DNA of 64,000 nucleotides from an uncultured Dehalococcoidia bacterium (GTDB taxonomy: Bacteria > Chloroflexota > Dehalococcoidia > Lucifugimonadales > Australimonadaceae). The stretch's first letter is position 1; every line of letters begins with the position of its first letter. The notes below the pieces were generated by a model that made no database searches, was not told where the DNA came from, and saw nothing but the letters and a program-made list of their open reading frames with translations. The stretch spans positions 7,365 through 71,364 of the forward strand of contig CAZLKC010000007.1 in assembly GCA_964560025.1 (NCBI GenBank), given 5' to 3'. A program made the translations under genes and the position numbers. This document shows, piece after piece, positions 2,991 through 59,859 of the stretch.

Positions 2991-3195
2991 GCGCCCTTCG
3001 AGTTCCCTCAGGCGAACGGGTTGGGCACCCAGGACGAGCGGGGTGCGCGCGAACACCGCCCATCGCGCCCTAGTGTCGTTGGGGTGTGTCTTGGGGATGC
3101 GGGGCGCCCCGCGTCGAGGTTCTCGCCTCCGCGAGAACGGCGGAGTGGGGGCGCAGGAACGGCGGAGAAGAGAGGGCGGCAACGATGGGCTGGGG
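2991..3195 (+). repeat. Composite intergenic repeat: module A, module D, module B hairpin (TC/GA variant), then 2-3 GGAACGGCGG tail units
   Basis: A = gcgcccttcgagttccctcaggcgaacgg (2991-3019). B = gcgtcgaggttctcgcctccgcgagaacggcgg (3111-3143). The same modules recur through the window. Confidence 0.85.
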
Positions 3196-3199
3196 CGCC

Positions 3200-4015
3200 C
3201 TACCCACCCCAGTTGAAGAGTTGGGCGCGGCGGTAGCCCAAGTAGCGCTCGGCCACGAAGGTTAGGGGTTTCTTCGCCTCGGCTACGTGGGCGCTGAGGC
3301 GGTCGAAGAGCGGCGCCAGCGCGGCGGGCGCGTCCGGATGCGACGCGGCGGCGGCGTAGGCTTGCTGCGCGGTCGTCTCGTATTCCTCGGTGGTCAAACG
3401 TCCTGAAAGGCGCGGGCGCAGCGCGCCGGAGCCGGGGTAGCGCGCGGCAAGCGCCGGGTAGTCGGGGAGGACGCCGAGGATGAAGAGGCACGCGTCCGCC
3501 GTGCGCTTGTAGAGCGGCAGGCGCTCCTCGTCCGTTGCATCCTCGGCTCGGCGCACGAGGCTGCGCACGTCGAGGTCGTTGTAGCGGCTCTTGCGCCAGA
3601 CGCCTCGGCGGACGCGTACGCGCACCGTGCGCCCCTCGATGCGGGTGAAGGAGGCGAGCAGGTGGGCGAGGTAGCCGACGACGCCGGGAGCTGACGCGAA
3701 GGAGGCGACGCCGGGGGCGTCGAAGACGGGGACGCGGCCGGCGCCGTCGCGCTCGATGGTGTAGCGCGCCCGCGCCATCTCGCGCACGGCGCGCAGCAGC
3801 AACGCCTCGAAGAAGAGGCGCGGGGTTACGTAGACGAAGGGTTCGTCGCCCGATAGGAGCGCGTCGAACAGGCGCGGATCGGCGAGCATCGCCTCGCGGC
3901 CGTCGCCCGCGAGGCGCGTGCGCACGACGTCGGCGTCGTCAAGGCCGAGCGCCCCGGCGACGAAGGCGGCGTCCTTCTCGCTCACGACATGCTGAAAGAG
4001 GCGCGTTTCGACCAC
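3200..4015 (-). CDS. Hypothetical protein (271 aa), no recognisable domain
   Basis: Long ORF with balanced composition (F, Y, K, E present), lying 40 nt downstream of the RraA-like gene on the same strand. Confidence 0.6.
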   Translation of the reverse strand: MVETRLFQHVVSEKDAAFVAGALGLDDADVVRTRLAGDGREAMLADPRLFDALLSGDEPFVYVTPRLFFEALLLRAVREMARARYTIERDGAGRVPVFDAPGVASFASAPGVVGYLAHLLASFTRIEGRTVRVRVRRGVWRKSRYNDLDVRSLVRRAEDATDEERLPLYKRTADACLFILGVLPDYPALAARYPGSGALRPRLSGRLTTEEYETTAQQAYAAAASHPDAPAALAPLFDRLSAHVAEAKKPLTFVAERYLGYRRAQLFNWGG

Positions 4016-4054
4016 GTTGGCGCTCCGGCGGGCGGCGCTCAGGGGCGCCCTGCC

Positions 4055-4765
4055 CTACTCTTTCGCCTCCCGCTCGCGGCGGAGCAGGTCTCTTGCGGCG
4101 TCGTTGAAGGGGTAGTACTTGCCGGGGGAGACGTCTTCGGTGAGGAGTTGGCGCTTGACGGCGGCCTCGAGCGCCTCGTGCTCGCGGGCCTGCTCGATCA
4201 CCTGGGCGGCGAGTTGGCGGGGCACGACCACGACGCCTCCGTCGTCGGCGGTGATGTAGTCGCCGGGGCGGACGAGGACGCCGCCGCACTGGACGGGCAG
4301 TTGCGCGTCGCAGGGGAGCATATGGGACGGCATCGTCATATTGGTCTCGCGAGCGGCGAATACGCCGATGCCGTAGGAGCGGAGCGTCGCCAGGTCGCGC
4401 ACGCCGCCGTCGGTAACGACGCCCTCGGCGCCGCGCTGCTTGAGGCGCCACAGTTTGATGTCGCCTGCGGAGGACGCCCACCCGCCGCGCATAGCGTCCA
4501 TCACCAGCACGTCGCCGGAGCCGCAGGCCTCCATCGCGCGGTACTCGGCGCTGCCGGGGCCGCCGACGACCTCGGCGCGCAGGTCGGGCCTGCTGGGGAC
4601 GAAGCGCATCGTTACGGCGCGGCCCGCGGTCTTTTGGCCGGGGATGAGGGAGGCGACGCCTTGCATCTGGACGTTGACGTAGCCCATGCCGTCGAGCACG
4701 TCGAGGCAGGCGGCGGCGGGAAGTTCGCGGAGGGCTTGGAGGATGGCGTCGTCGTCGGGGGGCAT
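4055..4765 (-). CDS. RraA-family protein (HMG/CHA aldolase / oxaloacetate decarboxylase-like)
   Basis: 236 aa with the pattern GRAVT..F.P...GDVLV.D......A..G......L...G..G.V.DG.VRD typical of the RraA/LigK-like fold. It is longer than E. coli RraA. Confidence 0.8.
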   Translation of the reverse strand: MPPDDDAILQALRELPAAACLDVLDGMGYVNVQMQGVASLIPGQKTAGRAVTMRFVPSRPDLRAEVVGGPGSAEYRAMEACGSGDVLVMDAMRGGWASSAGDIKLWRLKQRGAEGVVTDGGVRDLATLRSYGIGVFAARETNMTMPSHMLPCDAQLPVQCGGVLVRPGDYITADDGGVVVVPRQLAAQVIEQAREHEALEAAVKRQLLTEDVSPGKYYPFNDAARDLLRREREAKE

Positions 4766-4821
4766 AGGCGGCGGCCTCTGGGGCGGGCGGCATGATAGCG
4801 CCCCGCCGTTAGCGCGTGTGC

Positions 4822-4968
4822 GGCGCCCTTCGAGTTCCCTCAGGGCGAGCGGAGAGGAGCGGGGCGCGTCTCGGCGGAACAGGTATTGGGGATACGGGGA
4901 GTTGCGCGTCGAGGTTCCTGCCTACATAGGAACAACGGATAAGGCGCAGGAATGACAGATAAGAGGGG
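4822..4968 (+). repeat. Composite intergenic repeat: module A, D-like segment, decayed module B hairpin, two tail units
   Basis: ggcgcccttcgagttccctcagggcgagcgg (4822-4852); gcgtcgaggttcctgcctacataggaacaacgg (about 4905-4937); tail ggataaggcgcaggaatgacagataagaggggg. Confidence 0.8.
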
Positions 4969-5111
4969 GCGGCGTTTACAGGCGGGGCGGGCTTTGCTAT
5001 TTTGGCGTGGAGCCGGGTGGTTCGCGCGGGCAAGACGGGCTTCGTCCGGCGGCGGAAATCAGGGCGGGCAAGGACGAGGCGGCCCGGCGCCGCCGGGGAG
5101 AGTTCGACGCC

Positions 5112-5588
5112 GTGCGCATCGTCATCGGGTCCGACCACGCGGGGCTGCCGCTGAAGAAAGAGGCGGGGGAGTGGCTGCGGGAGTGGGGGTTCGAGGTGGA
5201 CGACGTGGGCGCACACGCCTACGACCCGGACGACGACTACCCCGACTTCTCCTTCGCGGTCGCCGAGGCGGTGGCGGGCGGGCGCGCCGACCGGGGCGTC
5301 ATCTTCTGCGGAAGCGGCGTGGGCGCGAGCATCGCGGCGAACAAGATGCCGGGGGTGCGCGCGGCGACGTGCCACGATTCCTACTCCGCGCACCAGGGCG
5401 TCGAGCACGACGATATGAACGTGCTGTGCTTGGGCGCGCGGGTGATCGGTCTGGAGCCAGCGCGCGAGGCGCTGCAAGCGTTCGTGGGGGCGTGGTTCAG
5501 CGGAGAGGAGCGGCACGCGCGGCGCCTCGCCAAGGTCAAGGCGGCGGAGGCGGCCTATCTGCGCGCGGGAGCGGAGGGGGCGACGTGA
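5112..5588 (+). CDS. rpiB: Ribose-5-phosphate isomerase B
   Basis: VRIVIGSDHAG...VIFCGSGVGASIAANKMPGVRAA.CHD..SA...VEHDDMNVLCLG is the RpiB/LacAB signature. GTG at 5112 is preceded by GGGGAGAG. The track ORF starts further upstream at 5007. Confidence 0.9.
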   Translation: MRIVIGSDHAGLPLKKEAGEWLREWGFEVDDVGAHAYDPDDDYPDFSFAVAEAVAGGRADRGVIFCGSGVGASIAANKMPGVRAATCHDSYSAHQGVEHDDMNVLCLGARVIGLEPAREALQAFVGAWFSGEERHARRLAKVKAAEAAYLRAGAEGAT

Positions 5589-8359: not shown

Positions 8360-8394
8360 GGCGCGCGCCGGGGCGGCGCAAGCAAGGGGACGTT

Positions 8395-10786: not shown

Positions 10787-10860
10787 GCCGTGCCGTAGGG
10801 GGCTGGTCTTGCGGTTGCGGGGCATTGCGCGTCGAGGTTCCTGCCGCCGCAGGAACGACG
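10787..10860 (+). repeat. Intergenic repeat: module D plus module B hairpin
   Basis: ...ggctggtcttgcggttgcggggcattgcgcgtcgaggttcctgccgccgcaggaacgacg; 8-bp stem gttcctgc/gcaggaac with loop cgcc. Confidence 0.8.
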
Positions 10861-10869
10861 ATATATGGC

Positions 10870-11193: not shown

Positions 11194-11263
11194 GGCTGCC
11201 TCCTCGTCGGTCTTGGGTGGTCGGAGCGCTGCCTACCATAGCACCCCACGCGGGGGCGGGAGC

Positions 11264-11345
11264 GTTCGACCTTCGATTTCCCTCAGGCCGAACGGGGTGG
11301 GGCGCCCTCTCCGTCGTTCTCGCGGAGGCGAGAACCTCGACGGCG
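11264..11345. repeat. Intergenic repeat: module A (forward) followed by the only reverse-oriented module B copy (TC/GA variant)
   Basis: gttcgaccttcgatttccctcaggccgaacgg (11264-11295); ccgtcgttctcgcggaggcgagaacctcgacgg (11311-11343) is the reverse complement of the 3111-3143 variant. Confidence 0.8.
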
Positions 11346-11475
11346 CAGTTCCCGAATTCGCCCGGGACTACCGGCGACAACCTCGCTCGTCTTCCCGCCC
11401 CCTCTGTGTGAACGGCGATCGCCTTTTCCCCGCGCCTGCATGCGTCGGGGTCGGTATTGCTGTCGCGGGCACCGA

Positions 11476-11590
11476 GCGTCGAGGTTCCTGCCTCCGCAGG
11501 AACGACGGAGAGGGGAGCAGGAACGACGGATAGAGGGCGGAACGACGGATAAGGGGCGGAACGACGGATAAGGGGCGGAACGACGGGCTA
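11476..11590 (+). repeat. Module B hairpin followed by five tandem ~19-21-bp units with core GGAACGACGG
   Basis: Core copies start at about 11499, 11520, 11539, 11558 and 11577. Units resemble GGAACGACGGATAAGGGGC. Confidence 0.85.
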
Positions 11591-11653
11591 GCGCACGGGG
11601 AGCGGGGCGATGCAAGGTTGCCGCGCCGCCGCCGAGCCCCTACCCTTGCGTGC

Positions 11654-13072
11654 ATGCCGCCGCTGCCTACCGACCCGGTCCGCATGACTATCGCGCAGAT
11701 GTCGCGCGCGATCCGGCGGCGGGCGCTGTCGCCGGTGGAGTTGGCGCAGGCGCACTTGGCGCGCATCGCGCAGTTGAACCCGCGCCTCAATGCCTACGTC
11801 GCCGTAACCGGCGAGCGCGCGCTTGCCGAGGCGCGGACGGCGGAGTCGGAGATCGCGTCGGGCGGCTGGCGCGGGCCGATGCACGGCGTGCCGTTCGCAT
11901 TGAAGGACCTGTACGACACGGCGGGCATCGTTACGGCGGGCGGGACGAAGGTGCTGGCGGAGCGCGTCCCCGAGCGCGACGCGACGGTTACGCGCAAGTT
12001 GCGCGAGGCAGGCGCGGTGCTGCTGGGCAAGACGAACACGCACGAGGCGGCCTACGGCGTAACTACGGACAATCCGCACTACGGGCGGACGCACAACCCT
12101 TGGAGCGCAGAGCGCATCCCCGGCGGTTCGAGCGGCGGCTCGGGGGCGGCGGTCGCGGCGCGGATGGCGCCGATGGGGATGGGCACGGACACGGGCGGCA
12201 GCATCCGCGACCCTGCGGCGCTGAACGGAGTGGTCGGCCTCAAGCCGACGTTCGGGCGCGTGAGCAAGGCGGGCGTGCTGCCCCTGTCGTGGCGCAACGA
12301 CCACGCAGGGCCGCTGACGCGCACCGTCGAGGACACGGCAATCGCGCTCGAGGCCATCGCGGGCTACGACCCGGACGACGCGTCGACGGTTCGCACGCCC
12401 GTGCCGCGCTACTCGCGCCAACTGGGGCGCGGCGCCGCAAGGCTGCGGGTGGGCGTTGCGCGGGCGTTCTTCTTCGACCATCTGCACGATGGGGTGCGCG
12501 CGGCGCTGGAGGAGGCGATCGGCGTGCTGCGCGGGCTGGGCTGCACGGTGCGCGAGGTGCGCGTCGGAGGGATGGAGGCGGGAGCGCATCATCTCCACGA
12601 TATGGTGCTGGCGGACGCGCAGGAGATCTACGCGCCCTTCCTGCCGGAGCGCCTCGGCGACTTCGGGGCGGACGTTGCGGGGCACTTGGCGACGCCCCCG
12701 CCGGACGGCGTGACGCTCGCGCGGGCGATGCGCGGGGCGGACGAGGTTTCGACCGAACTGCGTCGCGCGCTGGAGCAGGTGGACGTGCTCATCACGCCGA
12801 CGCTGCCCATCCCCGCGCCGCGTTTCGGCGAGGACGTAGTGGCATACGGGGGAGTCGAGGAGCCGACGCTGTTCGCGTTGAGCCGCTGCACTATCCCGTT
12901 CAACCTGTCGGGATTGCCCGCGCTGTCCGTCCCGTGCGGCTTCACGGCGGAGGGCTTGCCCGTAGGCATGCAGATCGTAGCGCGCCCATTCGACGAGGCA
13001 ACCGCGCTGCGCCTAGGCCACGCGTATCAGCGCGAGACGGGGTGGCATAAGACGGAGGCGGATGGGGTGTGA
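11654..13072 (+). CDS. Amidase (amidase-signature family, GatA-like)
   Basis: GPMHGVPFALKDLYDTAG..T.GG....GGSSGGSGAAVAA....MGMGTDTGGSIR.PAA..GVVGLKPT.GR.S is the AS-family signature. The start is uncertain (ATG 11654 or ATG 11684, MTIAQMSRAI...). Confidence 0.88.
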   Translation: MPPLPTDPVRMTIAQMSRAIRRRALSPVELAQAHLARIAQLNPRLNAYVAVTGERALAEARTAESEIASGGWRGPMHGVPFALKDLYDTAGIVTAGGTKVLAERVPERDATVTRKLREAGAVLLGKTNTHEAAYGVTTDNPHYGRTHNPWSAERIPGGSSGGSGAAVAARMAPMGMGTDTGGSIRDPAALNGVVGLKPTFGRVSKAGVLPLSWRNDHAGPLTRTVEDTAIALEAIAGYDPDDASTVRTPVPRYSRQLGRGAARLRVGVARAFFFDHLHDGVRAALEEAIGVLRGLGCTVREVRVGGMEAGAHHLHDMVLADAQEIYAPFLPERLGDFGADVAGHLATPPPDGVTLARAMRGADEVSTELRRALEQVDVLITPTLPIPAPRFGEDVVAYGGVEEPTLFALSRCTIPFNLSGLPALSVPCGFTAEGLPVGMQIVARPFDEATALRLGHAYQRETGWHKTEADGV

Positions 13073-13085
13073 GGGGGAAGCGAGG

Positions 13086-13114
13086 TTGCTTTGTCATTCA
13101 GAACGGCATAGCAT
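13086..13114 (+). promoter_or_regulatory. Candidate sigma70-type promoter for the GmrSD-like gene
   Basis: TTGCTT-17 nt-TAGCAT, with the -10 element ending 30 nt before ATG 13145. It sits in the AT-richer junction at the left edge of the islet. Confidence 0.3.
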
Positions 13115-13144
13115 TGTGGGACCTGGCTCATACGAGAAAGCATT

Positions 13145-15094
13145 ATGGAAATCGCCGCCATCCTTGCGTTCATTGACAATGGCCAAATGGCCTTACCACA
13201 GTTCCAGCGGGGCTACGTTTGGAACCGCGAGCAGATGCGAGGGTTGTTCGAATCGTTGTACAGGCGACATCCCGTAGGGGGCCTATTGGTCTGGCATGCC
13301 GATTCGGCATCGACTGCCCACCGCGGGGACAGCCAATTGGCGCCAGGGACTGTCAGACTGCTACTAGACGGTCAGCAGCGAATGACAACGCTGTACGGGA
13401 TCGTGCGTGGCAAACCGCCTACTTTCTTCGAGGGGCAGCGCGATTTGTTCTCCGGCCTCATGTTTCACGTCGAACGTGAAGAGTTCGAATTCTATCAGCC
13501 TGTCAAGATGCAAAACGATCCGTTGTGGATTAATGTGACTAACCTCATTCAGAATGGTATTGCTGATGACTTCAATACGTTGCACAGTCTAGATTTACAG
13601 CCAGAAGACATGAGCAAGTACATCAATCGTCTCAACGCCCTTCACAATATTACGAAAATTGATTTGCATATCGAAGATGTTGTCGGCTCAGATAAGTCGT
13701 TGGATGTTGTTGTTGGCATTTTCAATCGCGTTAACAGCGGCGGTACTAAGCTGTCTAAGGGCGACCTTGCGTTGGCCAATATATGCGCAGAATGGCCCGA
13801 TGCGCGCAATGAGATGAAGCAGGCATTGTGTGAATGGGCTAAGAAAGACTACTATTTCAATCTCGACTGGTTGTTGCGTTCGGTGAATGTCGTTCTAACT
13901 GGTGAAGCGCAGTTCAGATATCTTCGCGGCAAGGGTGCGGCAGAAATACAAGACGCGCTGAAACGAGCAAAGGATGGCATCAATGCTGTTCTCAATATGA
14001 TTGACGGCAATCTGGGACTCGACCACGACAGGGTGTTCTTCGGGCGCTTTGCCGTGCCTGTCATGGCGTACTATCTCGACCGGCACAGCGGGCCGCTCTC
14101 AGCCGAGGAGCGCGACAAGCTACTCTTTTGGTATGTCCAGGCCGGAATGTGGGGGCGTTTTTCTAGTGGTACCGAAAGCACCATCGACCAAGACCTCGAA
14201 GCGGTGAAGGGATCGGATTCATCGCTCGATAGCCTACTGGAACAGCTGCGGCTCTCCCGCAACGGGCTCCAGGTAGAGCCTGGTCATTTCACCGGCTGGA
14301 GTCTGGGAGCGCGATTCTATCCTATTCTTTACATGCTGACCCGAATGGGGGAAGCCAAGGACTGGGGCACGGGCGATCCTCTCAAGAAAGGGTTGTTGGG
14401 CAAGATGAGCCAGTTAGAGGTGCATCACATCTTCCCAAAGTCCCGGCTTTACGACGCTGGCCACTATCGTGCGGATGTGAACGCGCTAGCCAATTTCTGC
14501 TTCCTCACAAAGGAGACAAATCTCTCGATTAGCAACCGCTTGCCGGAGGACTACTTCCCCGAGGTAGAGACAAAGCACCCCGGCGCTCTCGCGTCACAGT
14601 GGGTCCCGACCGACCCTGAATTGTGGAAGTTGGAGAATTACTCCAGATTCCTCGAAGCCCGGCGCGAACTCCTAGCGGCCGAAACCAATCGTCGCCTAGA
14701 GAGCCTGCTGCACGGCGACACTCGCTGGTTCGAGAGCAGGTCGGCACCTGAGCCGGAGGCCGAGCCTGCGCTAGCGCCGCCCGGCGGCATCGCGAGCGAG
14801 GATGAGGAGGCCGTGTGCGAGGAGTTGAATGGATGGGTCGAGGCGCAGGGGCTTCCGCGCGGAGAGGTGGCGTTTGACTACACGGACACCGACAGCGGTG
14901 AGCAGCTTGCGGTGTTCGACCTCGCTTGGCCGGAGGGCGTGCAGACGGAACTCAGCCAGCCGGTGGCCGTGCTCCTCAACGAGGGCGCTGAGGTTCTCGC
15001 CATTGCCGCCAAGGCTGGGTATCGCTGCTTCACGGACGCGCAGGACTTTCGCACTTACGTCGAGCGCGAAATCAACCCCACCCCAAGCGAGTAG
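13145..15094 (+). CDS. GmrSD-like type IV restriction/defence protein (DUF262 ParB-like NTPase + DUF1524 HNH-like nuclease) with extra C-terminal domain
   Basis: N-terminus: LPQFQRGYVW and LLDGQQRMTTL (DUF262). Then EVHHIFPKS...NALANFCFLTKETNLSISN (DUF1524 His-Me finger). An acidic/Pro linker follows, then about 110 aa (EELNGWVEAQGLP...LAVFDLAWPEG...VAVLLNEG...). Most of the gene is clearly less GC-rich than its flanks. Confidence 0.85.
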   Translation: MEIAAILAFIDNGQMALPQFQRGYVWNREQMRGLFESLYRRHPVGGLLVWHADSASTAHRGDSQLAPGTVRLLLDGQQRMTTLYGIVRGKPPTFFEGQRDLFSGLMFHVEREEFEFYQPVKMQNDPLWINVTNLIQNGIADDFNTLHSLDLQPEDMSKYINRLNALHNITKIDLHIEDVVGSDKSLDVVVGIFNRVNSGGTKLSKGDLALANICAEWPDARNEMKQALCEWAKKDYYFNLDWLLRSVNVVLTGEAQFRYLRGKGAAEIQDALKRAKDGINAVLNMIDGNLGLDHDRVFFGRFAVPVMAYYLDRHSGPLSAEERDKLLFWYVQAGMWGRFSSGTESTIDQDLEAVKGSDSSLDSLLEQLRLSRNGLQVEPGHFTGWSLGARFYPILYMLTRMGEAKDWGTGDPLKKGLLGKMSQLEVHHIFPKSRLYDAGHYRADVNALANFCFLTKETNLSISNRLPEDYFPEVETKHPGALASQWVPTDPELWKLENYSRFLEARRELLAAETNRRLESLLHGDTRWFESRSAPEPEAEPALAPPGGIASEDEEAVCEELNGWVEAQGLPRGEVAFDYTDTDSGEQLAVFDLAWPEGVQTELSQPVAVLLNEGAEVLAIAAKAGYRCFTDAQDFRTYVEREINPTPSE

Positions 15095-15115
15095 GTCTTC
15101 GCCCCTGCCCGTTCC

Positions 15116-16867
15116 CTACCTAATGCGCACGTCTAGGACGGCGGCTTGGCCTTGTTTGACGCGGGCTAGGGCGCGTTTGAGGGAGGGGAGGACTTGGGCG
15201 GGGTCTTCTACGCGCTCGCCGTAGGCGCGGCAGGCTTGGACTAGCACGTCGTAGTCGGGGGAGGGGTCGATGTCCACGGCGACGTAGTTGTCGTTGCGGG
15301 GGCCTGCGCCGTCGGGGTACCACTTGTTCCACGAGTTGCGCGTGGCGTTGTGGGAAGAGTTGTTGTAGATGACGGTGAGGAAGGGGAGGCTGTACTTCTC
15401 GGCGGCCCAGAAGGCGGAGGTGGGGCGGGCGAAGATGAAGGCGCCGTCGCCCTCGAGGCAGACAACCGTCTTGTCGGGCGCGGCGAGTTTGACGCCGACG
15501 GAGGCGCCGAGGCCGTAGCCGAGGCTGGAGCCGCCGCTGCCAAAGACGGAGCCGGGCGCGCAGCGGTCGGTGTAGGCGTTGAAGGGGGCGCCGCCGGACA
15601 TGCCCTCGTTGACGACGATGGTGTCGTCGTCGAGCACCTGCTCGAGGCAGGCGGCGACGTAGAGGGGGTCGATGGGGCGCACGTGGGCGAGGGACTCCAC
15701 GCGCTCGTCAATCTCTGCGCGGCGGCGGCCGGCGTTGGCGCGGTAGCGTTCGTTGCGAGCGGCTATGCGCTCGCGGGCGGCGGGGGTGAGGCGCTCGCGC
15801 ACGGCGTCGAGCAGGAGGGGCAGCGCCTTGCGGGAGGCGGCGTGGATGAGCAGGTCGGCGGGGAAGGTCCAGAGCGGGATGGTGTCCTTGGAGGGGTCGA
15901 TGTCGATCCACCCTACCCTTGCTCCGGGCTCGAGCGTCTCCTCGTCGGGCACCCAGGGCACGTCGTGGTCGAGCACGAGGATGACATCGGCCTCGGAGAC
16001 GCCGGGCGCGCCGCAGGCCATCGCGTTGAGGAAGTGGCGCGTGGGCAGGTTGAGGCGGGTGTGGACGGCGCCCGCGACGGGCGCGCCGAGCGTCTCGGCC
16101 AGCTCGGTCAGCGTTGCGACGGCCTCGGGATGGCGGCCGGGCGTGCCCGCGATGATGAGGGGGCGCTCCGCCTCGACCAGCCATTCGGCGAGGGTCGCGA
16201 CGGCGTCGGGGTCGGGCGCGGGGGCGACGGGCTTGGCGTGGCGGGCGGCGGGAGGCAGGCGCAGTTCGTCCATCTCGGTCATCAGCAGTTCGCGGGGGAG
16301 GGTGAGGTAGACGGGGCCTGCGGGCTCGCTGCTCGCGACTTGGAACGCCTTCTGCACCACCCAGTTGAGGCTGTCGACGGTGCGGAGTTCGTAGTCCCAC
16401 TTGACGAAGGTGCGGACGATGCCGTGCTGGTCGAGTTGCTCTTGACCCCAGTGGATGACCATGTCCTTGGAGCCGGGGCGGGCGCCGCCGATGGTGATGG
16501 GGGCGCGTCCGGCGCAGACGATGACGCCGGAGCGGTCGCGCTGCACGTCGTGGTAGGCGCCGCCGATCTGCGCCGTGCCCGCGTCCACGTGCACGAGGAC
16601 GACCTGGGGGCGTCCCGTGACCTGGAAGTAGCCTTGGGCGGCGAACATCGCGGTTACTTCGTCGATGCAGAGGATGAGTTTAGGCGTGGGGCGCTCCTGC
16701 TCCATCATGCGGGCGACGGCCTCTTGGACGGGGAAGGTGTCGGTGCCGGAGTTGATGAAGAGGTACTCGACGCCATTGTGGACGAGCATCTCGACGAACG
16801 CCTCGGCGGCGTTGGCGACGGGGACGGCGCGGAGCGAGCGCGCTGCTGCGTCGGCGGCGGTTGGCAT
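15116..16867 (-). CDS. Thiamine-pyrophosphate-dependent enzyme (acetolactate synthase large-subunit family)
   Basis: Real part of track ORF 15116..17122, from ATG 16867 preceded by AGGAGG. Motifs: EAFVEMLVHNGVEYLFINSGTD, GAYHDVQ, GSSLGYGLGASVGVKLA.PDK.VVCLEGDGAF (TPP-binding motif). Confidence 0.88.
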   Translation of the reverse strand: MPTAADAAARSLRAVPVANAAEAFVEMLVHNGVEYLFINSGTDTFPVQEAVARMMEQERPTPKLILCIDEVTAMFAAQGYFQVTGRPQVVLVHVDAGTAQIGGAYHDVQRDRSGVIVCAGRAPITIGGARPGSKDMVIHWGQEQLDQHGIVRTFVKWDYELRTVDSLNWVVQKAFQVASSEPAGPVYLTLPRELLMTEMDELRLPPAARHAKPVAPAPDPDAVATLAEWLVEAERPLIIAGTPGRHPEAVATLTELAETLGAPVAGAVHTRLNLPTRHFLNAMACGAPGVSEADVILVLDHDVPWVPDEETLEPGARVGWIDIDPSKDTIPLWTFPADLLIHAASRKALPLLLDAVRERLTPAARERIAARNERYRANAGRRRAEIDERVESLAHVRPIDPLYVAACLEQVLDDDTIVVNEGMSGGAPFNAYTDRCAPGSVFGSGGSSLGYGLGASVGVKLAAPDKTVVCLEGDGAFIFARPTSAFWAAEKYSLPFLTVIYNNSSHNATRNSWNKWYPDGAGPRNDNYVAVDIDPSPDYDVLVQACRAYGERVEDPAQVLPSLKRALARVKQGQAAVLDVRIR

Positions 16868-16934: not shown

Positions 16935-17090
16935 GGGGGCGACCAGCAGGTCGCCCCTACAAGGCCTGCTCCACTCCGTCCCTGTGTCGTCGGGAGTGGT
17001 CTTTGGGTTGCGAGGCGCCGTACGTCGAGGTTCCTGCCTCCGCAGGAACGACGGAAGGAGAAGGCGGGAACGGCGGATATAAGAGCGGGG
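16935..17090 (+). repeat. Composite intergenic repeat: module C hairpin, D, B hairpin, two tail units
   Basis: gggggcgaccagcaggtcgcccctacaagg; ccctgtgtcgtcgggagtggtctttgggttgcgagg; cgtacgtcgaggttcctgcctccgcaggaacgacgg; aaggagaaggcgggaacggcggatataagagcgggg. Confidence 0.85.
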
Positions 17091-18843: not shown

Positions 18844-19194
18844 ATGTGGGGTGCTGTGTTGGCGGCGGTTCCGTGGGTTGAGATCATCAAGGCCGCGCCC
18901 AAGATAGCGGAGGAGACCCGCAAGTGGTACGACAGCGCGAGGGGGCGGCAGCCAAGGCAACCATCGGAGGGTGCGCCTAAGGGCGACGGCATACCGGCGT
19001 TGCGCGCCGATTTGAAGGTAGTCCAGGAGCGTTTGGATGTCTCGGAGAGCAACGAGCAGGCGCAGGCCGAACTCATCACGCGGATGGCACGGCACCAAGC
19101 GGGGTTGGTGCGGTGGGTTATGGCGCTGACGGTGGTCGCGGTGCTGACGAGCGTGGCGGCGGTTGCGGCGCTCGTCATCGTCGTCGTGGGGTGA
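18844..19194 (+). CDS. Small hypothetical protein with C-terminal transmembrane anchor
   Basis: 116 aa. A strong SD (TAAGGAGG) lies 7 nt before the ATG. The hydrophilic, coiled-looking N-terminal part ends in ...[25 protein letters not shown]. Confidence 0.6.
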
Positions 19195-19197
19195 GGC

Positions 19198-19360
19198 GGG
19201 GGCAACCAGCAGGTCGCCCCTACAAGGCCCGCCCGGCCACGGCCCCGTGTCGTCGGGGCGGGTTTTGGGGTTGCGGAACGCCTAGCGCCGAGATTCCTGC
19301 CTCCGCAGAACGATGGATTGGGGAGGCGGTTCGCCCTTCGAGTTCTCTCAGGGTGAACGG
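19198..19360 (+). repeat. Composite intergenic repeat with all four modules: C, D, B (1-nt deletion in the stem), A
   Basis: gggggcaaccagcaggtcgcccctacaagg ... ccccgtgtcgtcggggcgggttttggggttgcgg ... gcgccgagattcctgcctccgcagaacgatgg ... gttcgcccttcgagttctctcagggtgaacgg. Confidence 0.85.
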
Positions 19361-19395
19361 GAGCAGGGGCGCGGAAAGGGTGGCGGTGGGAGGGG

Positions 19396-20310
19396 CTACG
19401 TCACCTTTTCGCCCATGATGAATTGGCGGACGGCTTCGTTGAACTCGGCGGGTTTCTCCCAGTGGGCCCAGAAGCCGGTTTGGGGGAGGAGTTTGAACTG
19501 GGCGCCGGGGATGAGGGAGGCGAGGCGCTCGCCCGCGTCGGGGCCGGTGCCCTCGCTGCCGTCGTTCCAGATGACGAGGACGGGGAGATCGATCTTGGAG
19601 ACCTGCTCCTCGGTGGCGAGGTATTGGGCGCCTTTGCCGGAGGCGTAGTAGTCGTAGACGCGGATCATGCCGTCGTTGGTGGAGGGGCGCAGGTAGTGGG
19701 CGAGGCGCACGTCGACCAGTTCGTCCGTTACCTGCTCGGGGTGGTCGCGGTGCATGACCATCAGCAGGCGGGCGCGGACGCCGTCCCAGGTGAGGTTGCG
19801 GAGCAGTTGCTTGCTGCGCTCGACCATCGAGATGCCGCCCGCGGGGGGCGCGGCGGGGGGCTTGACGGCGCCCTCTTCCCACTTGATGGCGATGCCCGAT
19901 TCGAAGATGACGCCCTTGAGGCGGTGGGGGTGCTCGAGCACTAGCGGGGTCATGCCGCTGGCGCCGCCCGCCTCGCCGTGGATCCACACCTTGTCGAGGC
20001 CGAGGGTGTCCATCAGGTCGAGCACCTCGTCGGTTACCTGGGCGTTCATGTGCTCCCACATCGGCGGCGCGTCGGTCATACCGTGCCACAGCATCTCGAC
20101 GCCGATGACGTGGAAGTGCTGCGCGAGTGGGACGAGGTTGCGGGAGAAGGTCTCGATGTGGCCGCCGCCGCCGTGGAGCATCAGGAGGGTTTCGGGGTTG
20201 CCCTGTCCCGCCTCGGCGATGCGGATGCGGTAGCGCTGCCCCTGCACGAAGCGGATGTCCGCGCCGAGGAAGTCCACCCAGATGCTGTTGGGGGTGTCAG
20301 GCCGGGGCAT
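19396..20310 (-). CDS. Alpha/beta-fold protein of the meta-cleavage-product (C-C) hydrolase family, apparently lacking the catalytic Ser and His
   Basis: 304 aa. LMLHGGGGH...; the nucleophile elbow reads IHGEAGGA where MhpC/BphD have GNSMGG. The C-terminal motif reads TGFWAHWEKPAEFN where they have CGHWAQWEHADEFN. Confidence 0.8.
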   Translation of the reverse strand: MPRPDTPNSIWVDFLGADIRFVQGQRYRIRIAEAGQGNPETLLMLHGGGGHIETFSRNLVPLAQHFHVIGVEMLWHGMTDAPPMWEHMNAQVTDEVLDLMDTLGLDKVWIHGEAGGASGMTPLVLEHPHRLKGVIFESGIAIKWEEGAVKPPAAPPAGGISMVERSKQLLRNLTWDGVRARLLMVMHRDHPEQVTDELVDVRLAHYLRPSTNDGMIRVYDYYASGKGAQYLATEEQVSKIDLPVLVIWNDGSEGTGPDAGERLASLIPGAQFKLLPQTGFWAHWEKPAEFNEAVRQFIMGEKVT

Positions 20311-20353
20311 ATGCGTCTCCTTGTCGTGTGCGGGCGAGGGTGCGGCTACCCTG

Positions 20354-21585: not shown

Positions 21586-21647
21586 GATGCCCTTCGAGTT
21601 CCCTCAGGGCGAACGTAGGAGGCGACCAGCAGGTCGCCCCTACAAGG
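21586..21647 (+). repeat. Intergenic repeat: module A directly followed by module C
   Basis: gatgcccttcgagttccctcagggcgaacg tagga ggcgaccagcaggtcgcccctacaagg. Confidence 0.85.
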
Positions 21648-22308: not shown

Positions 22309-22340
22309 GTTCGCCCTTCGAGTTCGCTCAGGGCGAACGG
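22309..22340 (+). repeat. Module A copy with an extended 9-bp stem
   Basis: gttcgccct-tcgagttcgctc-agggcgaac gg. Confidence 0.8.
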
Positions 22341-29310: not shown

Positions 29311-29342
29311 GTCAGCCCTTCGATCTTCCTCAGGGCGGACGG
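29311..29342 (+). repeat. Module A copy (diverged)
   Basis: gtcagcccttcgatcttcctcagggcggacgg. Confidence 0.7.
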
Positions 29343-29484
29343 GGGGAAGCGATAGGGCAACGGGGAGAGCGGTCAGGCACGCGCCTTGTTCTGAGCGGGG
29401 GCGGGGCGGGTAGTCCATAATGGGGGCTTGCGGCCTTGCGCGGGCGTTTCGGCGGCGGAGCGCGGGGCGGCGGAGGCTAACCCG

Positions 29485-34761: not shown

Positions 34762-34866
34762 CCTTGTGCGCGTCGGGGCGGGTCTTGAGTTGTGGGGCGC
34801 CGTACGCCGAGATTCCTGCCTCCGCAGGAACGACGAAGAAAGAGGCGGGGACGGCGGATTGGGGGG
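34762..34866 (+). repeat. Intergenic repeat: module D, B hairpin, two tail units
   Basis: ...gcgcgtcggggcgggtcttgagttgtggggcgccgtacgccgagattcctgcctccgcaggaacgacgaagaaagaggcggggacggcggattgggggg. Confidence 0.8.
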
Positions 34867-37942: not shown

Positions 37943-38018
37943 CCCCCGTGTCGTCGGGGCGGGTTTTGTAGATGCGGGGCACCGCGCGTCGAGGTTCCTG
38001 CCTCCGCAGGAACGACGG
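37943..38018 (+). repeat. Intergenic repeat: module D plus B hairpin (near-identical to the 59783-59859 copy)
   Basis: cccccgtgtcgtcggggcgggttttgtagatgcggggcaccgcgcgtcgaggttcctgcctccgcaggaacgacgg. Confidence 0.85.
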
Positions 38019-45530: not shown

Positions 45531-45560
45531 AGGGGCGACCGGCTGGTCGCCCCTACAAGG
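45531..45560 (+). repeat. Module C copy with an altered loop (ggct instead of agca)
   Basis: aggggcgacc-ggct-ggtcgcccctacaagg. Confidence 0.8.
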
Positions 45561-45580
45561 AGCGCCGCAGCCAGGGCTCC

Positions 45581-52160: not shown

Positions 52161-52192
52161 GGGCGCCCTTCGAGTTCCCTCAGGGCGAACGG
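52161..52192 (+). repeat. Module A copy
   Basis: gggcgcccttcgagttccctcagggcgaacgg. Confidence 0.8.
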
Positions 52193-53953: not shown

Positions 53954-53971
53954 GGGGGCGGAGCCTAGCCC

Positions 53972-55264: not shown

Positions 55265-55289
55265 CACCCGCGCGATGGCGACGTACAAT
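55261..55289 (+). promoter_or_regulatory. Near-consensus sigma70-type promoter of vapBC
   Basis: TTGACA-17 nt-TACAAT, overlapping the purD stop codon. It is followed by two CCGTAC boxes (55295-55300 and 55309-55314, the second inside the palindrome CCGTACGG) before GTG 55326. Confidence 0.55.
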
Positions 55290-55325
55290 CCTTTCCGTAC
55301 AAAATAATCCGTACGGAGAAGTGAA

Positions 55326-55577: not shown

Positions 55578-56013
55578 CGCGAACGTCCCCATCTACGCCG
55601 CCGGACGCGCGCACGCCTGCAAGCAGCCGTGCGCCCGGGTTCTCCGCCTAGCTGCGGAAGCGCCACAGGTTTTCGTAACCACTTCGGAAGTCCTCCAAGA
55701 ATTGGTGCATTTCTACCTGGCTCGAGGGCGCTGGGCGCTGGGAAGAGAGGTCGTGCATTCTTTCGGTGAGGTGCTCAGCGGGCAAGTCGAGTCCGTCCAT
55801 GCGGAGGACATCATCGCGGCAGCGAACTTGGCCGACCACCATCAGGGAATCAGCGCGCGCGACCTCGTCCATGCTGCGGTGATGCAGCGATTGGGGTTGA
55901 GCCGCATTGTCTCGACCGACGCCGACTTTGACCGCATTGAGGGCCTCGAGAGACTAGACCCCGTCCGCATCGATGAGTGGGAGGGTTCGCTGCTCCCCGG
56001 CCCTAGCGGCTAA
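55555..56013 (+). CDS. vapC: PIN-domain ribonuclease toxin
   Basis: 152 aa: VFVDANVPIYA...TSEVLQEL...ARDLVHAAVM......IVSTDADFDRI shows the PIN acidic residues. Confidence 0.85.
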   Translation: MSQAVFVDANVPIYAAGRAHACKQPCARVLRLAAEAPQVFVTTSEVLQELVHFYLARGRWALGREVVHSFGEVLSGQVESVHAEDIIAAANLADHHQGISARDLVHAAVMQRLGLSRIVSTDADFDRIEGLERLDPVRIDEWEGSLLPGPSG

Positions 56014-56022
56014 CGCGCCATC

Positions 56023-56050
56023 GGGGGCGACCAGCAGGTCGTCCCTGCAA
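56023..56050 (+). repeat. Decayed module C copy
   Basis: gggggcgaccagcaggtcgtccctgcaa. Confidence 0.6.
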
Positions 56051-56093
56051 TATGTCTCCTGCTGCCCGGTTGACCGCTCCGGCCTTCCCTGCC

Positions 56094-57050: not shown

Positions 57051-57051
57051 A

Positions 57052-59241
57052 TTAGGTGTCTCCTTGGGCGGTCGGGGTTGGTTCGAGCGTCGCCTGGGAC
57101 GCGGGGCGCAGCCTGCCGTAGATGATAGCCGCAGCGGCGAGCGCGATGGTGAGCACGGGCGCGATAAGCAGCGCGGCCTCGTTGCTGCGCAGCAGCGCGT
57201 AGAAGGATACCGCGCCCACAACGTAGAAGGGCGCGCGCGCCGCCGGATGCAGCATCGCGCCCACCCATCCGCCGCTGGCCATCTGTATGCCGACGAGCAC
57301 GATGGCTAGGGAGAGCACCACCGGCAGGGTGGCGAGGCCGTTGTCGGGGATGTCCCGCAGCAGCAGCAGGTCGTCCGGCGCGAGCAGCAGGACGATGGGG
57401 AAGACGTAGAAGGGCCACGCCATCTTCACCAGTTGCCACGAGACCTTGCCGTAGGTTGTTCCGGCGAGCGCCGCCGCCACCAGCGCGCTGCCGGCCACAG
57501 GGGGGACGATGAGGCTCAGTGAGCCCATGTAGAAGGCGACGAAGTGCGACGCGCGCACGTCCACCCCCATCCCGGCGAGGATGGGCACGAAGGTGACGGT
57601 AACCAGGAAGTAGATGGCAAGGTTGGGCAGTCCGGCGGCCATGATGACCGAAAGGACGATGAGCAGCGCTCCGGCCAAGGCGACGCTGCCGCCGCTCAGG
57701 TCTTCCACGATGCCGCCGAAGCGCGTCCCCACGCCGGTGTGCCCGATGGTGTCGGCGAGGATGGTTACGATGACCAGCACGACGGAGACGGCGCTGGCGT
57801 AGAAGGCGGCGTTCTTCATCCCGTTCGACCAGACCGACCATCGCGTTTCCACACGCAGAATCACGCCCAACATCAGCGTCGCCATCAGCGCGGCGGGCAC
57901 CGCCGTCCGCAGCGTGAACCCCTCCAGCACTAGGGCGATGATGACGCCCACGGGCACGGCGGCGATGGCCGCCGAGCGCACGTACATTCCCATCGGGCTG
58001 CGGGTGAGGAGCGCCAGCGCGACGGAGGCCAAGACGCCGCCCAAGACCATAACGAAGGCGGACATCAGCACGGGGAAGGCACCGTCGCCGAACAGCAGCC
58101 AGGGGAAGATGCGAATGGTGGTGAGGTTCAGCAGCAGGAGCAGGAGCGGGACGAAGACGATCAGCGCGTTGCGCACGTAGGGCCACGTTTCCTGGTCGGC
58201 CTGGGGCTGGGCGGCGACCTCCGCCGCCGTCGCCTCCACGCGCTTGATGCGGTGGGCGTTGCGCTTGGCGTGGCCGATGATGTAGGCCGCCGTACCGATG
58301 TACCACATCGCCGCGGGGATGATGGCCATGCGGATGACCTCGAGGTAGCTGATGCCCAAGAGGTTCGCCATAACGAAGGCGACGATGCCGAGGATGGGCG
58401 GCGTGATGGTGGAGGCGTTGGAGGCGACGCCCTCGATGCCGCCGCCCTCTTCCGGCGTGTAGCCGCCGCGCACCATCGCGGGGATGGTGATGGGGCCGGT
58501 GATGGCGACGTTGTTGGGGCCTGCGCCGACAAAGGAGCCGGCGATGCCGGACGCGATCAGCGCGCCCATCGCTGGGCCGCCCACCAGGCGGCGTGAGAAG
58601 GCGCGCGCCATGCCAACCACCACGAGGCTCGCCCCCGCCGCCGCCAGCATAATGCCCCAGAAGATGAGGAGCCACAGGAAGCGCGAGGCCTGGTCGACGA
58701 CGCCGGTGTGCTGCTTCTGGGCGATGCGCGTGAGCACCTCCTCTACCTCGAAGTCGGCGCCCCGCAGGAAGCCGGGCATGAACCCCGCCGTGAAGTGGTA
58801 GGTGATGAAGATCGCGCCCAAGATGGGGAACACCCACCCGAAGTACATATAGGAGACGGCGAGCACCGAGAGGAGGATCACCATCCCCAGCACCATGTCG
58901 GGCCAGGTGCCGAAGCGCGAGCGGTAGAAGAAGTCCTCCGCTACTTGGAAGAAGTAGATCTCGGCGATGGCGACGCCGATCATCAGCAGAACGGCGACCG
59001 CCCAGCGCGGCGTCGTGCGCTTGCGCATCACGAAGCCCAACAAGCCGATCCAGATGGCGAAGGCGAGGTGGGCGTTCTGGTAGGCCTGGACGGGCGGGTC
59101 CCATCGGAACTGGCCGAGGCCCATCGCCAGCATCGCCGCGAGCGAGAACCAGAACACGCCCGTCACGACGGAGTCGAGGCGGTCGGGCTTCCTCTCTTGT
59201 TGCGCGCCCCTGTCTTCTGCCATGCCTGTCTCCCGCGCCAA
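57052..59241 (-). CDS. TRAP transporter fused (4TM/12TM) permease, TAXI-type
   Basis: 729 aa polytopic protein. ...GGPAMGALIASGIAGSFVGAGPNNVAITGPITIPAMVRGGY.PEEGGGIEGVASNASTITPPILG is typical of fused TRAP permeases. Its stop lies 1 nt from the LLM start. Confidence 0.85.
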   Translation of the reverse strand: MARETGMAEDRGAQQERKPDRLDSVVTGVFWFSLAAMLAMGLGQFRWDPPVQAYQNAHLAFAIWIGLLGFVMRKRTTPRWAVAVLLMIGVAIAEIYFFQVAEDFFYRSRFGTWPDMVLGMVILLSVLAVSYMYFGWVFPILGAIFITYHFTAGFMPGFLRGADFEVEEVLTRIAQKQHTGVVDQASRFLWLLIFWGIMLAAAGASLVVVGMARAFSRRLVGGPAMGALIASGIAGSFVGAGPNNVAITGPITIPAMVRGGYTPEEGGGIEGVASNASTITPPILGIVAFVMANLLGISYLEVIRMAIIPAAMWYIGTAAYIIGHAKRNAHRIKRVEATAAEVAAQPQADQETWPYVRNALIVFVPLLLLLLNLTTIRIFPWLLFGDGAFPVLMSAFVMVLGGVLASVALALLTRSPMGMYVRSAAIAAVPVGVIIALVLEGFTLRTAVPAALMATLMLGVILRVETRWSVWSNGMKNAAFYASAVSVVLVIVTILADTIGHTGVGTRFGGIVEDLSGGSVALAGALLIVLSVIMAAGLPNLAIYFLVTVTFVPILAGMGVDVRASHFVAFYMGSLSLIVPPVAGSALVAAALAGTTYGKVSWQLVKMAWPFYVFPIVLLLAPDDLLLLRDIPDNGLATLPVVLSLAIVLVGIQMASGGWVGAMLHPAARAPFYVVGAVSFYALLRSNEAALLIAPVLTIALAAAAIIYGRLRPASQATLEPTPTAQGDT

Positions 59242-59314
59242 GCGCGGCCTCCCGGCGGCTAGCAGACGGCATTATAAGCAGGGGCGGCGCCGGGGGTGAA
59301 CAGGGAAGAGCGCC

Positions 59315-59548
59315 TTAGCGGTTTTCCCACATTGCCAGTTCGTCGGTCGGCAGCGATTCGGAGAACTCGCCGCCGACCGCGACCACGCCCTTCCACGCGC
59401 CCGGCTCCCGCTTGCCGGGCGGCTTGTAGGGCGTCAACAGGGCAACGGGCGCGCCATCCTGAGCGATGATCACTTCCTCACCCTGTTCCACTAGCGCTAG
59501 CAGCGCAGGCAGGTCGACCTCCGTCTTATGAACGTCTAGCGTAAGCAC
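59315..59548 (-). CDS. Phd/YefM-family type II antitoxin (no adjacent toxin gene)
   Basis: 77 aa from GTG 59548: ...DLPALLALVEQGEEVIIAQDGAPVALLTPY... plus the C-terminal ...LPTDELAMWE. Confidence 0.7.
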   Translation of the reverse strand: MLTLDVHKTEVDLPALLALVEQGEEVIIAQDGAPVALLTPYKPPGKREPGAWKGVVAVGGEFSESLPTDELAMWENR

Positions 59549-59662
59549 GACTGTCTCATTTCTTGCGGAATTCGTAACACTAGATTAGCACATCCGCGGG
59601 GCGGCACTGCGATTGCGGGGACCTTGCGTAACTAGCCGCCACGGGGTGCCGGAGATGGCGGC

Positions 59663-59692
59663 GGGGGCGACCAGCAGTTCGCTCCTACAGGG
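59663..59692 (+). repeat. Decayed module C copy
   Basis: gggggcgaccagcagttcgctcctacaggg. Confidence 0.6.
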
Positions 59693-59782
59693 AAGGCCGC
59701 CCACGCCATATCCGTCATTCCCGATATGCGAAGGGGTGGCTGGCGCATTCAGAGTAAGGTGTTCGGCGTTCGCGCCCCGCAG

Positions 59783-59859
59783 CCCCCGTGTCGTCGGGGC
59801 GGGTTTTGGGGGTTACGGGACGCCGCGCGTCGAGGTTCCTGCCTCCGCAGGAACGACGG
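59783..59859 (+). repeat. Intergenic repeat: module D plus B hairpin
   Basis: cccccgtgtcgtcggggcgggttttgggggttacgggacgccgcgcgtcgaggttcctgcctccgcaggaacgacgg. Confidence 0.85.

What the first reader, a model, noticed from the sequence alone, without database searches (positions are those of the whole stretch)
2991..59859. Modular family of intergenic hairpin repeats (modules A, B, C, D) with near-uniform strand orientation
At least 15 intergenic gaps carry combinations of four conserved modules:
- **Module A:** GCCCTTCGAGTTCCCTCAGGGCGAACGG, 8 copies at about 2991, 4822, 11264, 19329, 21586, 22309, 29311 and 52161.
- **Module B:** GCGTCGAGGTTCCTGC-CTCC-GCAGGAACGACGG, a perfect 8-bp hairpin, 10 copies at about 3111, 4905, 10828, 11311, 11476, 17019, 19285, 34805, 37984 and 59825.
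- **Module C:** GGGCGACC-AGCA-GGTCGCCCCTACAAGG, 6 copies at about 16935, 19198, 21618, 45531, 56023 and 59663.
- **Module D:** CCCGTGTCGTCGGGGCGGGTTTTG..., which always sits immediately 5' of module B.

The modules combine in variable orders: C-D-B-A at 19198, A-D-B at 2991 and 4822, A-C at 21586.

By my count 23 of 24 placed copies have the same orientation on the + strand, even though flanking genes are on both strands. Only 11311-11343 is inverted.

This orientation bias over 57 kb argues against passive terminators. It points to a strand-specific process, such as ssDNA-hairpin mobilisation by a RAYT/IS200-like enzyme or a replication-strand-linked function.
Basis: seen in the sequence. Interest (0 to 1): 0.65.

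Follow-up and report, generated by a model that had tools for sequence, protein, structure and literature searches.

The report
Strand-locked REP hairpin repeats, Dehalococcoidia
The gaps between genes of this uncultured Dehalococcoidia bacterium hold several families of short mobile hairpin repeats (REP-type) that almost all point the same way along the DNA strand, following the strand asymmetry left by replication and not gene direction; no known REP-moving enzyme is encoded.

Summary

**Genome-wide counts.** The 1.93 Mb genome (58 contigs) carries 137 A, 93 B, 52 C and 46 D copies; 98% of the A, B and C copies are intergenic.

**What the modules are.** Read on the opposite strand:
- Module B is a CGTC-tagged REP (CGTC-1/NTS type). 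Eleven copies lie within 2 mismatches of the Neisseria NTS 28-mer.
- Module C is a GTAG-tagged REP.
- A and D match no described family.

**Orientation.**
- It follows codon-third-position GC skew in 237 of 282 copies (84%), and in 94% where skew is strong.
- Where skew and transcription direction disagree, 66 copies follow skew and 9 follow transcription.
- A sister species repeats the rule in 10 of 10 contig regions.
- Two complete relatives show two-domain, replichore-like orientation maps. One of them has the opposite sign.

**Mobility.** A and B are expanded only in this genus. Sister genomes show empty orthologous sites, so the elements are gained and lost as modules or clusters.

**Enzymes.** No Y1/RAYT transposase was found in this genome, in either sister genome, or in 30 of 31 genomes searched (this genome plus 30 relatives). 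The tagged strand lies on the C-rich strand, opposite to IS200/IS605 polarity. The RAYT idea is not supported; a replication-strand-linked process is.

The parts
2994..3019 (+). Module A copy. Shared with sister species G002 at the orthologous site.
3068..3143 (+). D-B unit (B stem variant TTCTCGC). Absent from G002, where the site is empty.
4825..4940 (+). A-D-B cluster. Absent from G002 (gap 172 bp here, 15 bp there).
10803..10861 (+). Partial D plus module B. Absent from G001 and G002.
11268..11295 (+). Module A copy (diverged).
11312..11342 (-). The one inverted module B. It forms a head-out (HH) dimer with the B at 11476.
11438..11508 (+). D-like stretch plus module B.
11499..11590 (+). 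Tandem array repeating the 3' arm of B (core GGAACGACGG, period about 20).
16935..17054 (+). C-D-B cluster. The site is empty in G001 and filled differently in G002.
19198..19360 (+). C-D-B-A cluster.
21589..21647 (+). A-C pair.
22313..22340 (+). Module A copy.
29317..29345 (+). Diverged module A copy (AGCCCTTCGATCTTCCTCAGGGCGGACGG).
34805..34835 (+). Module B copy.
37943..38018 (+). D-B unit between two minus-strand genes.
45532..45561 (+). Module C copy.
52165..52192 (+). Module A copy, exact consensus.
56023..56050 (+). Module C copy (diverged).
59663..59692 (+). Module C copy.
59783..59859 (+). D-B unit.

Best explanation
These are REP-class, non-autonomous hairpin repeats.
- Module B is a CGTC-1/NTS-type REP: on the minus strand it reads CGTC + 8-bp stem + 4-nt loop + stem + C.
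- Module C is a GTAG-tagged REP.
- Modules A and D match no described family.

They expanded within this Dehalococcoidia genus and are gained or lost in intergenic spacers as single modules or as composite clusters of 150-290 bp.

Their orientation is set by the DNA strand relative to replication, not by transcription. The copies accumulate through a process at the replication fork that acts on single-stranded DNA and preserves polarity relative to the fork. The enzyme is unidentified and is not a Y1/RAYT.

**Shown:** family identity, intergenic location, lineage-specific expansion, empty sites in sister species, coupling to strand skew, independence from transcription, absence of Y1 genes.

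**Inferred:** that the skew marks the replication strand in this fragmented genome; that the bias arises at insertion and not by later purging; and the nature of the enzyme.
For: **Skew coupling**
- Orientation agrees with strand-corrected third-position skew in 237 of 282 copies, and in 118 of 125 where |skew| > 0.25.
- The skew is strand-wide: it appears in genes on both strands.
- Where skew and transcription disagree, 66 copies follow skew and 9 follow transcription.

**Replication**
- Both ribosomal-protein clusters, dnaK and groEL lie on the G-rich strand.
- G and T are enriched together on that strand.

**Replication of the result in relatives**
- Sister species G002: orientation matches the skew sign in 10 of 10 contig regions, covering 33 copies.
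- All 8 repeat copies in G002's syntenic region (7 of them G002-specific) have the same polarity as in this genome.
- Complete chromosomes G033 and G031 show two-domain orientation maps whose boundaries lie near dnaA and the skew switches.

**Mobility**
- Module A has 143, 39 and 101 copies and module B 77, 4 and 16 copies in the three genomes of the genus, and about 0 elsewhere.
- About 20 of 24 assessable copies are absent at the orthologous G002 site. Some of those sites are nearly empty.

**Bias at insertion**
- Copies closest to the consensus are as biased as diverged ones.

**Family identity**
-, with PMC3733652 and PMC11893778.
Against: - No origin or terminus could be located in this genome. 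dnaA (C4:82-83.6 kb) does not sit at a skew switch, and there is no DnaA-box cluster.
- Skew changes sign several times within contigs C1 and C2, so rearrangements must be assumed.
- Skew magnitude varies from 0 to 0.3 between regions, and repeat density rises with it from 4 to 34 per 100 kb. Purging of wrongly oriented copies would explain this at least as well as biased insertion.
- In complete relative G031 the module A orientation has the opposite sign relative to dnaA and raw skew. No fixed rule links the sequence to one strand.
- No candidate enzyme was found.
- No target-site duplication or target motif was visible at the four junctions examined.
Confidence: 0.55

Rival explanations
1. 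Survivorship, not biased insertion. Copies insert in either orientation. Those whose enzyme-recognised strand (CGTC- or GTAG-tagged) lies on the lagging-strand template, which is single-stranded at the fork, are cut, excised or deleted. Only copies with the tagged strand on the leading-strand template persist. Chromosomal integron attC sites behave in a comparable way (from my own knowledge, not checked here). A single-strand nuclease of the Ssn type would be the agent.
For: - The tagged strand of B and C lies on the C-rich strand, inferred to be the leading-strand template.
- Repeat density is 8-fold lower in weak-skew regions, as expected if inversions expose copies to purging.
- SsnA cuts only the tagged strand of NTS single-stranded DNA (PMC11893778).
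- One small GIY-YIG gene exists at C4:89124-89705.
Against: - The copies closest to consensus, taken as youngest, are as biased as old ones.
- The GIY-YIG protein is 193 aa and most resembles UPF0213 structures. It has no NCBIfam match, is not flanked by B copies, and was not found in G001 or G002.
- Most B copies fail the published SRM pattern at the first stem base: 24 regex hits against 8 in the control.
- G031 shows the opposite sign.
Confidence: 0.25
2. The repeats are host-function sites read in a replication-oriented way. Possibilities include polar sequences for chromosome segregation or recombination (KOPS- or Chi-like), or binding sites for a nucleoid or gyrase-type factor. On this view selection for function keeps them on one strand.
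For: - Orientation is coupled to strand skew in several unrelated families at once.
- G-rich purine tails flank the modules on the G-rich strand.
- The hairpin is kept through compensatory stem changes.
Against: - Copies turn over fast: most are species-specific, the same spacer holds different modules in three species, and empty sites exist.
- Density is very uneven, 4 to 34 per 100 kb.
- The families are confined to one genus.
- The sign differs in G031.
- Known polar motifs are 8-mers inside genes, not 30-nt intergenic hairpins (from my own knowledge).
Confidence: 0.08
3. Orientation follows transcription. The repeats would act as RNA elements (terminators or mRNA stabilisers) in 3' untranslated regions, and the apparent strand bias would reflect operon direction.
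For: - The repeats are enriched in convergent spacers: 21% occupied, against 7% of co-directional spacers.
- Module D looks like a hairpin followed by a T-run.
Against: - With co-directional flanks, only 53 of 133 copies match the transcription direction, whereas 110 of 133 match skew.
- When the two predictors disagree, 66 copies follow skew and 9 follow transcription.
- The four flank configurations are all common.
- No Rfam family matches.
Confidence: 0.03

Closest known systems
CGTC-1 REPs (Di Nocera, De Gregorio & Rocco 2013, PMC3733652), also known as Neisseria dRS3/NTS and Ssn-related motifs (Chenal et al. 2025, PMC11893778)
   Same: - The reverse complement of module B has the same layout: CGTC, an 8-bp stem, a 4-nt loop (GGAG, GAAG or GCAG), the stem, then C.
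- The ATTCCCGC subfamily matches the 28-nt Neisseria NTS within 1-2 mismatches in 11 copies.
- All nine inverted pairs are head-out (HH) dimers; no tail-to-tail pair was found.
- The copies are intergenic.
- No dedicated transposase is present.
   Different: - Most stems start with G, not A/T, so they fail the published SRM pattern.
- About 80% of copies are single units in one orientation, not dimers.
- Many copies carry a fixed 5' partner (module D) and a tandem array of the 3' arm.
- No clear Ssn gene is present.
- The strand-locked orientation was not found described in the papers read.
GTAG-tagged REPs / REPINs mobilised by RAYT (TnpA-REP, Y1 HUH)
   Same: - The reverse complement of module C reads GTAG + GGGCGACC + 4 nt + GGTCGCCC.
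- The copies are intergenic and show lineage-specific copy numbers.
- GTAG REPs are already reported in Chloroflexi (PMC3733652).
   Different: - No Y1/RAYT gene in the genus, nor in 30 of 31 genomes searched (this genome plus 30 relatives).
- Copies are single units, not REPIN doublets.
- All copies are co-oriented with strand skew.
IS200/IS605 single-strand transposition coupled to replication (Ton-Hoang 2010, as cited in PMC6006769 and PMC3971601)
   Same: - Hairpin-bearing elements whose orientation is sorted by replication strand.
- It offers a model in which polarity relative to the fork is preserved.
   Different: - IS200 elements point with the fork. Here the tagged strand is on the opposite (C-rich) strand.
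- No transposase gene is present.
- The elements are 30-290 bp and carry no coding capacity.

Membership tests
CGTC-1 REP / NTS / SRM | CGTC tetranucleotide directly 5' of an 8-bp stem with a 4-nt loop, and an unpaired tail that starts with C | tested here: met
   Among CGTC-N8-N4-N8-C hairpins, the stems GTTCCTGC (22), GCTCCCGC (20), GTTCTCGC (19) and ATTCCCGC (10) dominate. The reversed-genome control gives 65 hairpins against 246 observed.
CGTC-1 REP / NTS / SRM | Match to the published SRM search pattern HGTCWYN(0-2)YYVSBRHN(0-5)WNVSBRGN(0-2)RNCYNB | tested here: not met
   Only 24 hits against 8 in the control. The hits come from the ATTCCCGC subfamily. The main subfamilies have G at the W position.
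CGTC-1 REP / NTS / SRM | Near-identity to the Neisseria NTS 28-mer | tested here: met
   Eleven copies lie within 2 substitutions, for example CGTCATTCCCGCGAAGGCGGGAATCTCG. This holds for a minority subfamily only.
CGTC-1 REP / NTS / SRM | An ssn gene (GIY-YIG, cd10448, about 94 aa) in the genome, flanked by the repeats | tested here: inconclusive
   - One small GIY-YIG protein of 193 aa is present. Its closest solved structures are UPF0213 proteins.
- It has no flanking B copy within 900 bp and was not found in G001 or G002.
- The CDD model cd10448 is not available in these tools.
CGTC-1 REP / NTS / SRM | Predominantly organised as HH dimers | tested here: not met
   There are 9 HH pairs (18 copies) and 75 single copies. 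No TT pair was found.
GTAG REP / REPIN-RAYT | GTAG directly flanking a palindrome of 20-40 bp | tested here: met
   The consensus GGGCGACCNGCNGGTCGCCCCTAC is the reverse complement of GTAG-GGGCGACC...; 52 copies.
GTAG REP / REPIN-RAYT | A RAYT (Y1 HUH transposase) gene, usually flanked by the REPs | tested here: not met
   PF01797 was not found in G000, G001 or G002. One weak hit appeared among the 31 genomes searched (this genome plus 30 relatives). The positive controls were detected.
GTAG REP / REPIN-RAYT | REPIN doublets (inverted pairs) as the mobile unit | tested here: not met
   The C copies in the window are single, and all are in one orientation.
Rfam RNA families | Match to any curated covariance model | tested here: not met
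   (gathering threshold, whole window) found only a tRNA. One search (E <= 1, window 19150-19420) found nothing.

The most novel reading that the evidence does not exclude
In Dehalococcoidia, REP-type hairpins of several unrelated families (CGTC-tagged, GTAG-tagged and untagged) would spread by a replication-fork-coupled single-strand copy process that needs no Y1 transposase and keeps each element's polarity relative to the fork. Every copy would then be a readable arrow of replication direction.

The sign of the polarity would be set by founder copies, or by the lineage's enzyme, and not by the sequence. This is suggested by the opposite sign in one complete relative.

Repeat density together with skew strength would record how long a segment has kept its orientation.
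Probability: 0.3. Interest if true: 0.8.

Novelty: new variant of a known kind. Interest (0 to 1): 0.6.

Why it matters
- How REPs move is poorly understood, and CGTC REPs have no known mobilising enzyme.
- A lineage with abundant single-unit REPs, no RAYT, and an orientation locked to the replication strand argues for a fork-coupled single-strand mechanism.
- This gives a concrete system in which to look for the enzyme.
- The repeats could also serve as markers of replication direction and of past inversions in fragmented metagenome assemblies.

Tried and rejected
1. **Fuzzy regex with BESTMATCH** undercounted copies. It was replaced by iterative nhmmer.
2. **First gene caller.** It was biased towards shadow ORFs on the C-rich strand and produced a false result, 'genes prefer the C-rich strand / inverted skew'. 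After retraining (10 of 10 calls confirmed by Pfam) 46% of genes lie on the G-rich strand, so that claim was dropped.
3. **Skew 'halo' around repeats.**
   - The pooled decay with distance largely reflects differences between regions.
   - In dense contigs the skew is flat out to 15 kb.
   - Around 18 isolated clusters there is only a weak rise within 500 bp, with wide confidence intervals.
4. **Strand difference in hairpin stability:** none found.
5. **Origin search:** no DnaA-box cluster, and dnaA is not at a skew switch.
6. **Ssn link:** the GIY-YIG candidate is unconvincing.
7. **Replichore test in complete close relatives** failed because they lack these families. More distant complete chromosomes were found through an exact-match scan.
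9. **The look-up of encoding contigs** gave no usable gene map.
10. **Loci from other genomes** were mostly not available to Python. Sixty kilobases were imported through an alignment file.
Full report
**Setting**

The window is C7:7365-71364 of a 1.93 Mb, 58-contig, 69% GC assembly. It is 93.7% complete with 1.8% contamination. Public records that carry the same repeats are labelled Dehalococcoidia/Chloroflexota MAGs.

**Observation**

- Pattern searches recover modules A, B and C on the + strand, with zero matches expected by chance.
- Twenty-three of the 24 copies share one orientation. The exception is 11312-11342.
- Genome-wide there are 137 A, 93 B and 52 C copies and 46 D copies.
- With a retrained gene caller, confirmed by Pfam on 10 of 10 tested calls, 277 of the 282 A, B and C copies are intergenic.
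- Spacer occupancy is 21% for convergent, 15% for divergent and 7% for co-directional spacers.

**What the modules are**

*Module B.* Read on the other strand, it is CGTC + 8-bp stem + 4-nt loop + stem + C. This is the layout of CGTC-1 REPs (PMC3733652) and of the Neisseria NTS (PMC11893778).
- The stem subfamilies are GTTCCTGC, GCTCCCGC, GTTCTCGC and ATTCCCGC.
- Eleven copies lie within two substitutions of the 28-nt NTS consensus.
- The variable stem positions stay complementary: 98 of 106 for the inner pair and 89 of 106 for the outer pair, against shuffled means of 37 and 43.
- Most copies fail the published SRM pattern because the first stem base is G.

*Module C.* Its reverse complement is a GTAG-tagged REP.

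*Modules A and D.* They match no described family and no Rfam model. D is a 6-bp GC hairpin followed by a T-run, and it precedes 34 of the 93 B copies.

*Inverted B pairs.* There are nine, all head-out, with spacers of 98-151 bp. They account for half of the discordant B copies.

**Orientation**

- Per contig the bias is extreme: C3 has 3+/39-, C7 has 26+/2- and C11 has 33+/0-.
- The GC skew is strand-wide. It appears in genes on both strands and at third codon positions.
This rises to 118 of 125 where |skew| > 0.25.
- Among copies with co-directional flanking genes, 110 of 133 follow skew and 53 of 133 follow transcription. Where the two predictors disagree, the split is 66 to 9 in favour of skew.
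- The refutation test 'orientation simply follows transcription' therefore fails. The test 'about 50:50 with no replichore correlation' also fails.

**Which strand**

- G and T are enriched together on that strand, which is the usual leading-strand signature, including in Chloroflexi (PMC5291525).
- The rpsL-S10-spc-alpha cluster of about 36 genes, the tuf-L7/L12 cluster, dnaK and groEL all lie on the G-rich strand. atpD, recA and dnaA do not.
- I take the G-rich strand to be the leading strand, with roughly 80% confidence.
- The tagged strand of B and C then lies on the leading-strand template. That is opposite to IS200/IS605, which point with the fork (PMC3971601).
- I could not locate an origin. 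dnaA is not at a skew switch, and there is no DnaA-box cluster.

**An error corrected**

My first gene caller suggested that genes prefer the C-rich strand. That was an artefact of shadow ORFs and vanished after retraining.

**Mobility**

- Modules A and B are abundant only in the three genomes of this genus: A has 143, 39 and 101 copies, and B has 77, 4 and 16.
- Sister contig G002:C31 is collinear with C7 and joins it to the end of C11. Together they give 136 kb of one polarity.
- Of 24 copies that could be assessed, about 20 have no same-family counterpart at the orthologous G002 site. Several of those sites are nearly empty: -3 to 15 bp, against 172-290 bp here.
- One spacer is empty in G001, holds C-D-B here, and holds an A-type module plus other sequence in G002.
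- No target duplication was visible at the junctions examined.
- Copies closest to the consensus are as biased as diverged ones.

**The rule in other genomes**

- All 8 repeat copies in G002's syntenic region (7 of them G002-specific) share the polarity seen here.
- In ten other G002 contig regions, the orientation of 33 A copies matches the sign of raw skew in all ten.
- An exact-match scan found module A in three complete chromosomes of other Dehalococcoidia.
- G033 has two orientation domains. The skew switches near dnaA at 1.15 Mb, and the sign relation is the same as here (39 of 55 copies).
- G031 also has two clean domains with boundaries near dnaA, but the sign is opposite. Its raw skews are weak and were not corrected for gene strand, so this remains unexplained.

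**Enzymes**

- PF01797 (Y1_Tnp) was not found in this genome, in G001 or in G002. Across the 31 genomes searched there is one weak hit, and the positive controls were detected.
- The only small GIY-YIG protein is 193 aa and resembles UPF0213 structures. It has no NCBIfam hit, is not flanked by B copies, and was not found in the sister genomes.

**Other features**

- Skew strength differs greatly between regions, from 0 to about 0.3.
- Repeat density rises with skew strength, from 4 to 34 per 100 kb.
- Skew is flat with distance from repeats inside the dense contigs.
- Hairpin stability does not differ between the two strands.

**Interpretation**

The best reading is REP-class mobile hairpins whose gain, or retention, is coupled to the replication strand through a single-strand process run by an unknown enzyme.
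- Insertion bias and purging of wrongly oriented copies cannot yet be separated.
- The lack of an age trend favours insertion bias.
- The link between repeat density and skew strength favours purging.
- The opposite sign in G031 fits a polarity-preserving copy process with a founder effect better than a fixed rule tying the enzyme to one strand.

**Literature**

I found no paper in the searchable library that describes REP orientation sorted by replication strand. Earlier notes of this scan report the same pattern in other Chloroflexota genomes. I treated those notes as leads and tested them here.

Noticed in passing
window 13070-15116: The GmrSD-like (DUF262) gene is missing at the orthologous site in both sister genomes. 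The gap there is 220 bp in G002 and 32 bp in G001. It is a single-gene presence/absence polymorphism of a defence gene.
   Followed up: partly
window 11260-11618: G001 and G002 carry a gene of about 130 codons here. G000 has a repeat cluster in its place (A, inverted B, D-B, tandem array). A copy with 81-84% identity exists at C9:33808-34205. G001 has a module A in the opposite orientation at this site.
   Followed up: partly
whole genome (for example C3:120-130 kb, C11, C7 versus C5, C8): GC-skew strength is very uneven: third-position skew is about 0 in some contigs and 0.2-0.3 in others. Raw skew reaches -0.32 in C3:120-130 kb. The sign changes several times within C1 and C2.
   Followed up: partly
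window 11499-11590 and 17055-17080: The 3' arm of module B (GGAACGACGG) is repeated in tandem with a period of about 20 bp. The number of units varies between copies.
   Followed up: no
window about 20322-20346: Synteny with G002 breaks here, jumping from C31:991 to C55:3799, between two minus-strand genes. This is a rearrangement breakpoint between the species.
   Followed up: no
C4:82092-83600 (outside the window): dnaA-dnaN lie in a region of uniform positive skew and uniform repeat orientation. The origin may not be next to dnaA in this genome, unlike in the complete relatives G031 and G033.
   Followed up: partly
G031 (OY760073.1), 1.866-1.882 Mb: A dense local array of about 20 module-A-type copies in both orientations lies within 16 kb. 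G033 has regular arrays with a 61-bp or 239-bp period at 349 kb and 377 kb.
   Followed up: no
isolated repeat clusters genome-wide: Within 500 bp of 18 isolated clusters, third-position GC and TA skews are higher (0.14 and 0.20) than further away (about 0.06 and 0.03). The confidence intervals are wide. This is a possible local mutational footprint.
   Followed up: partly
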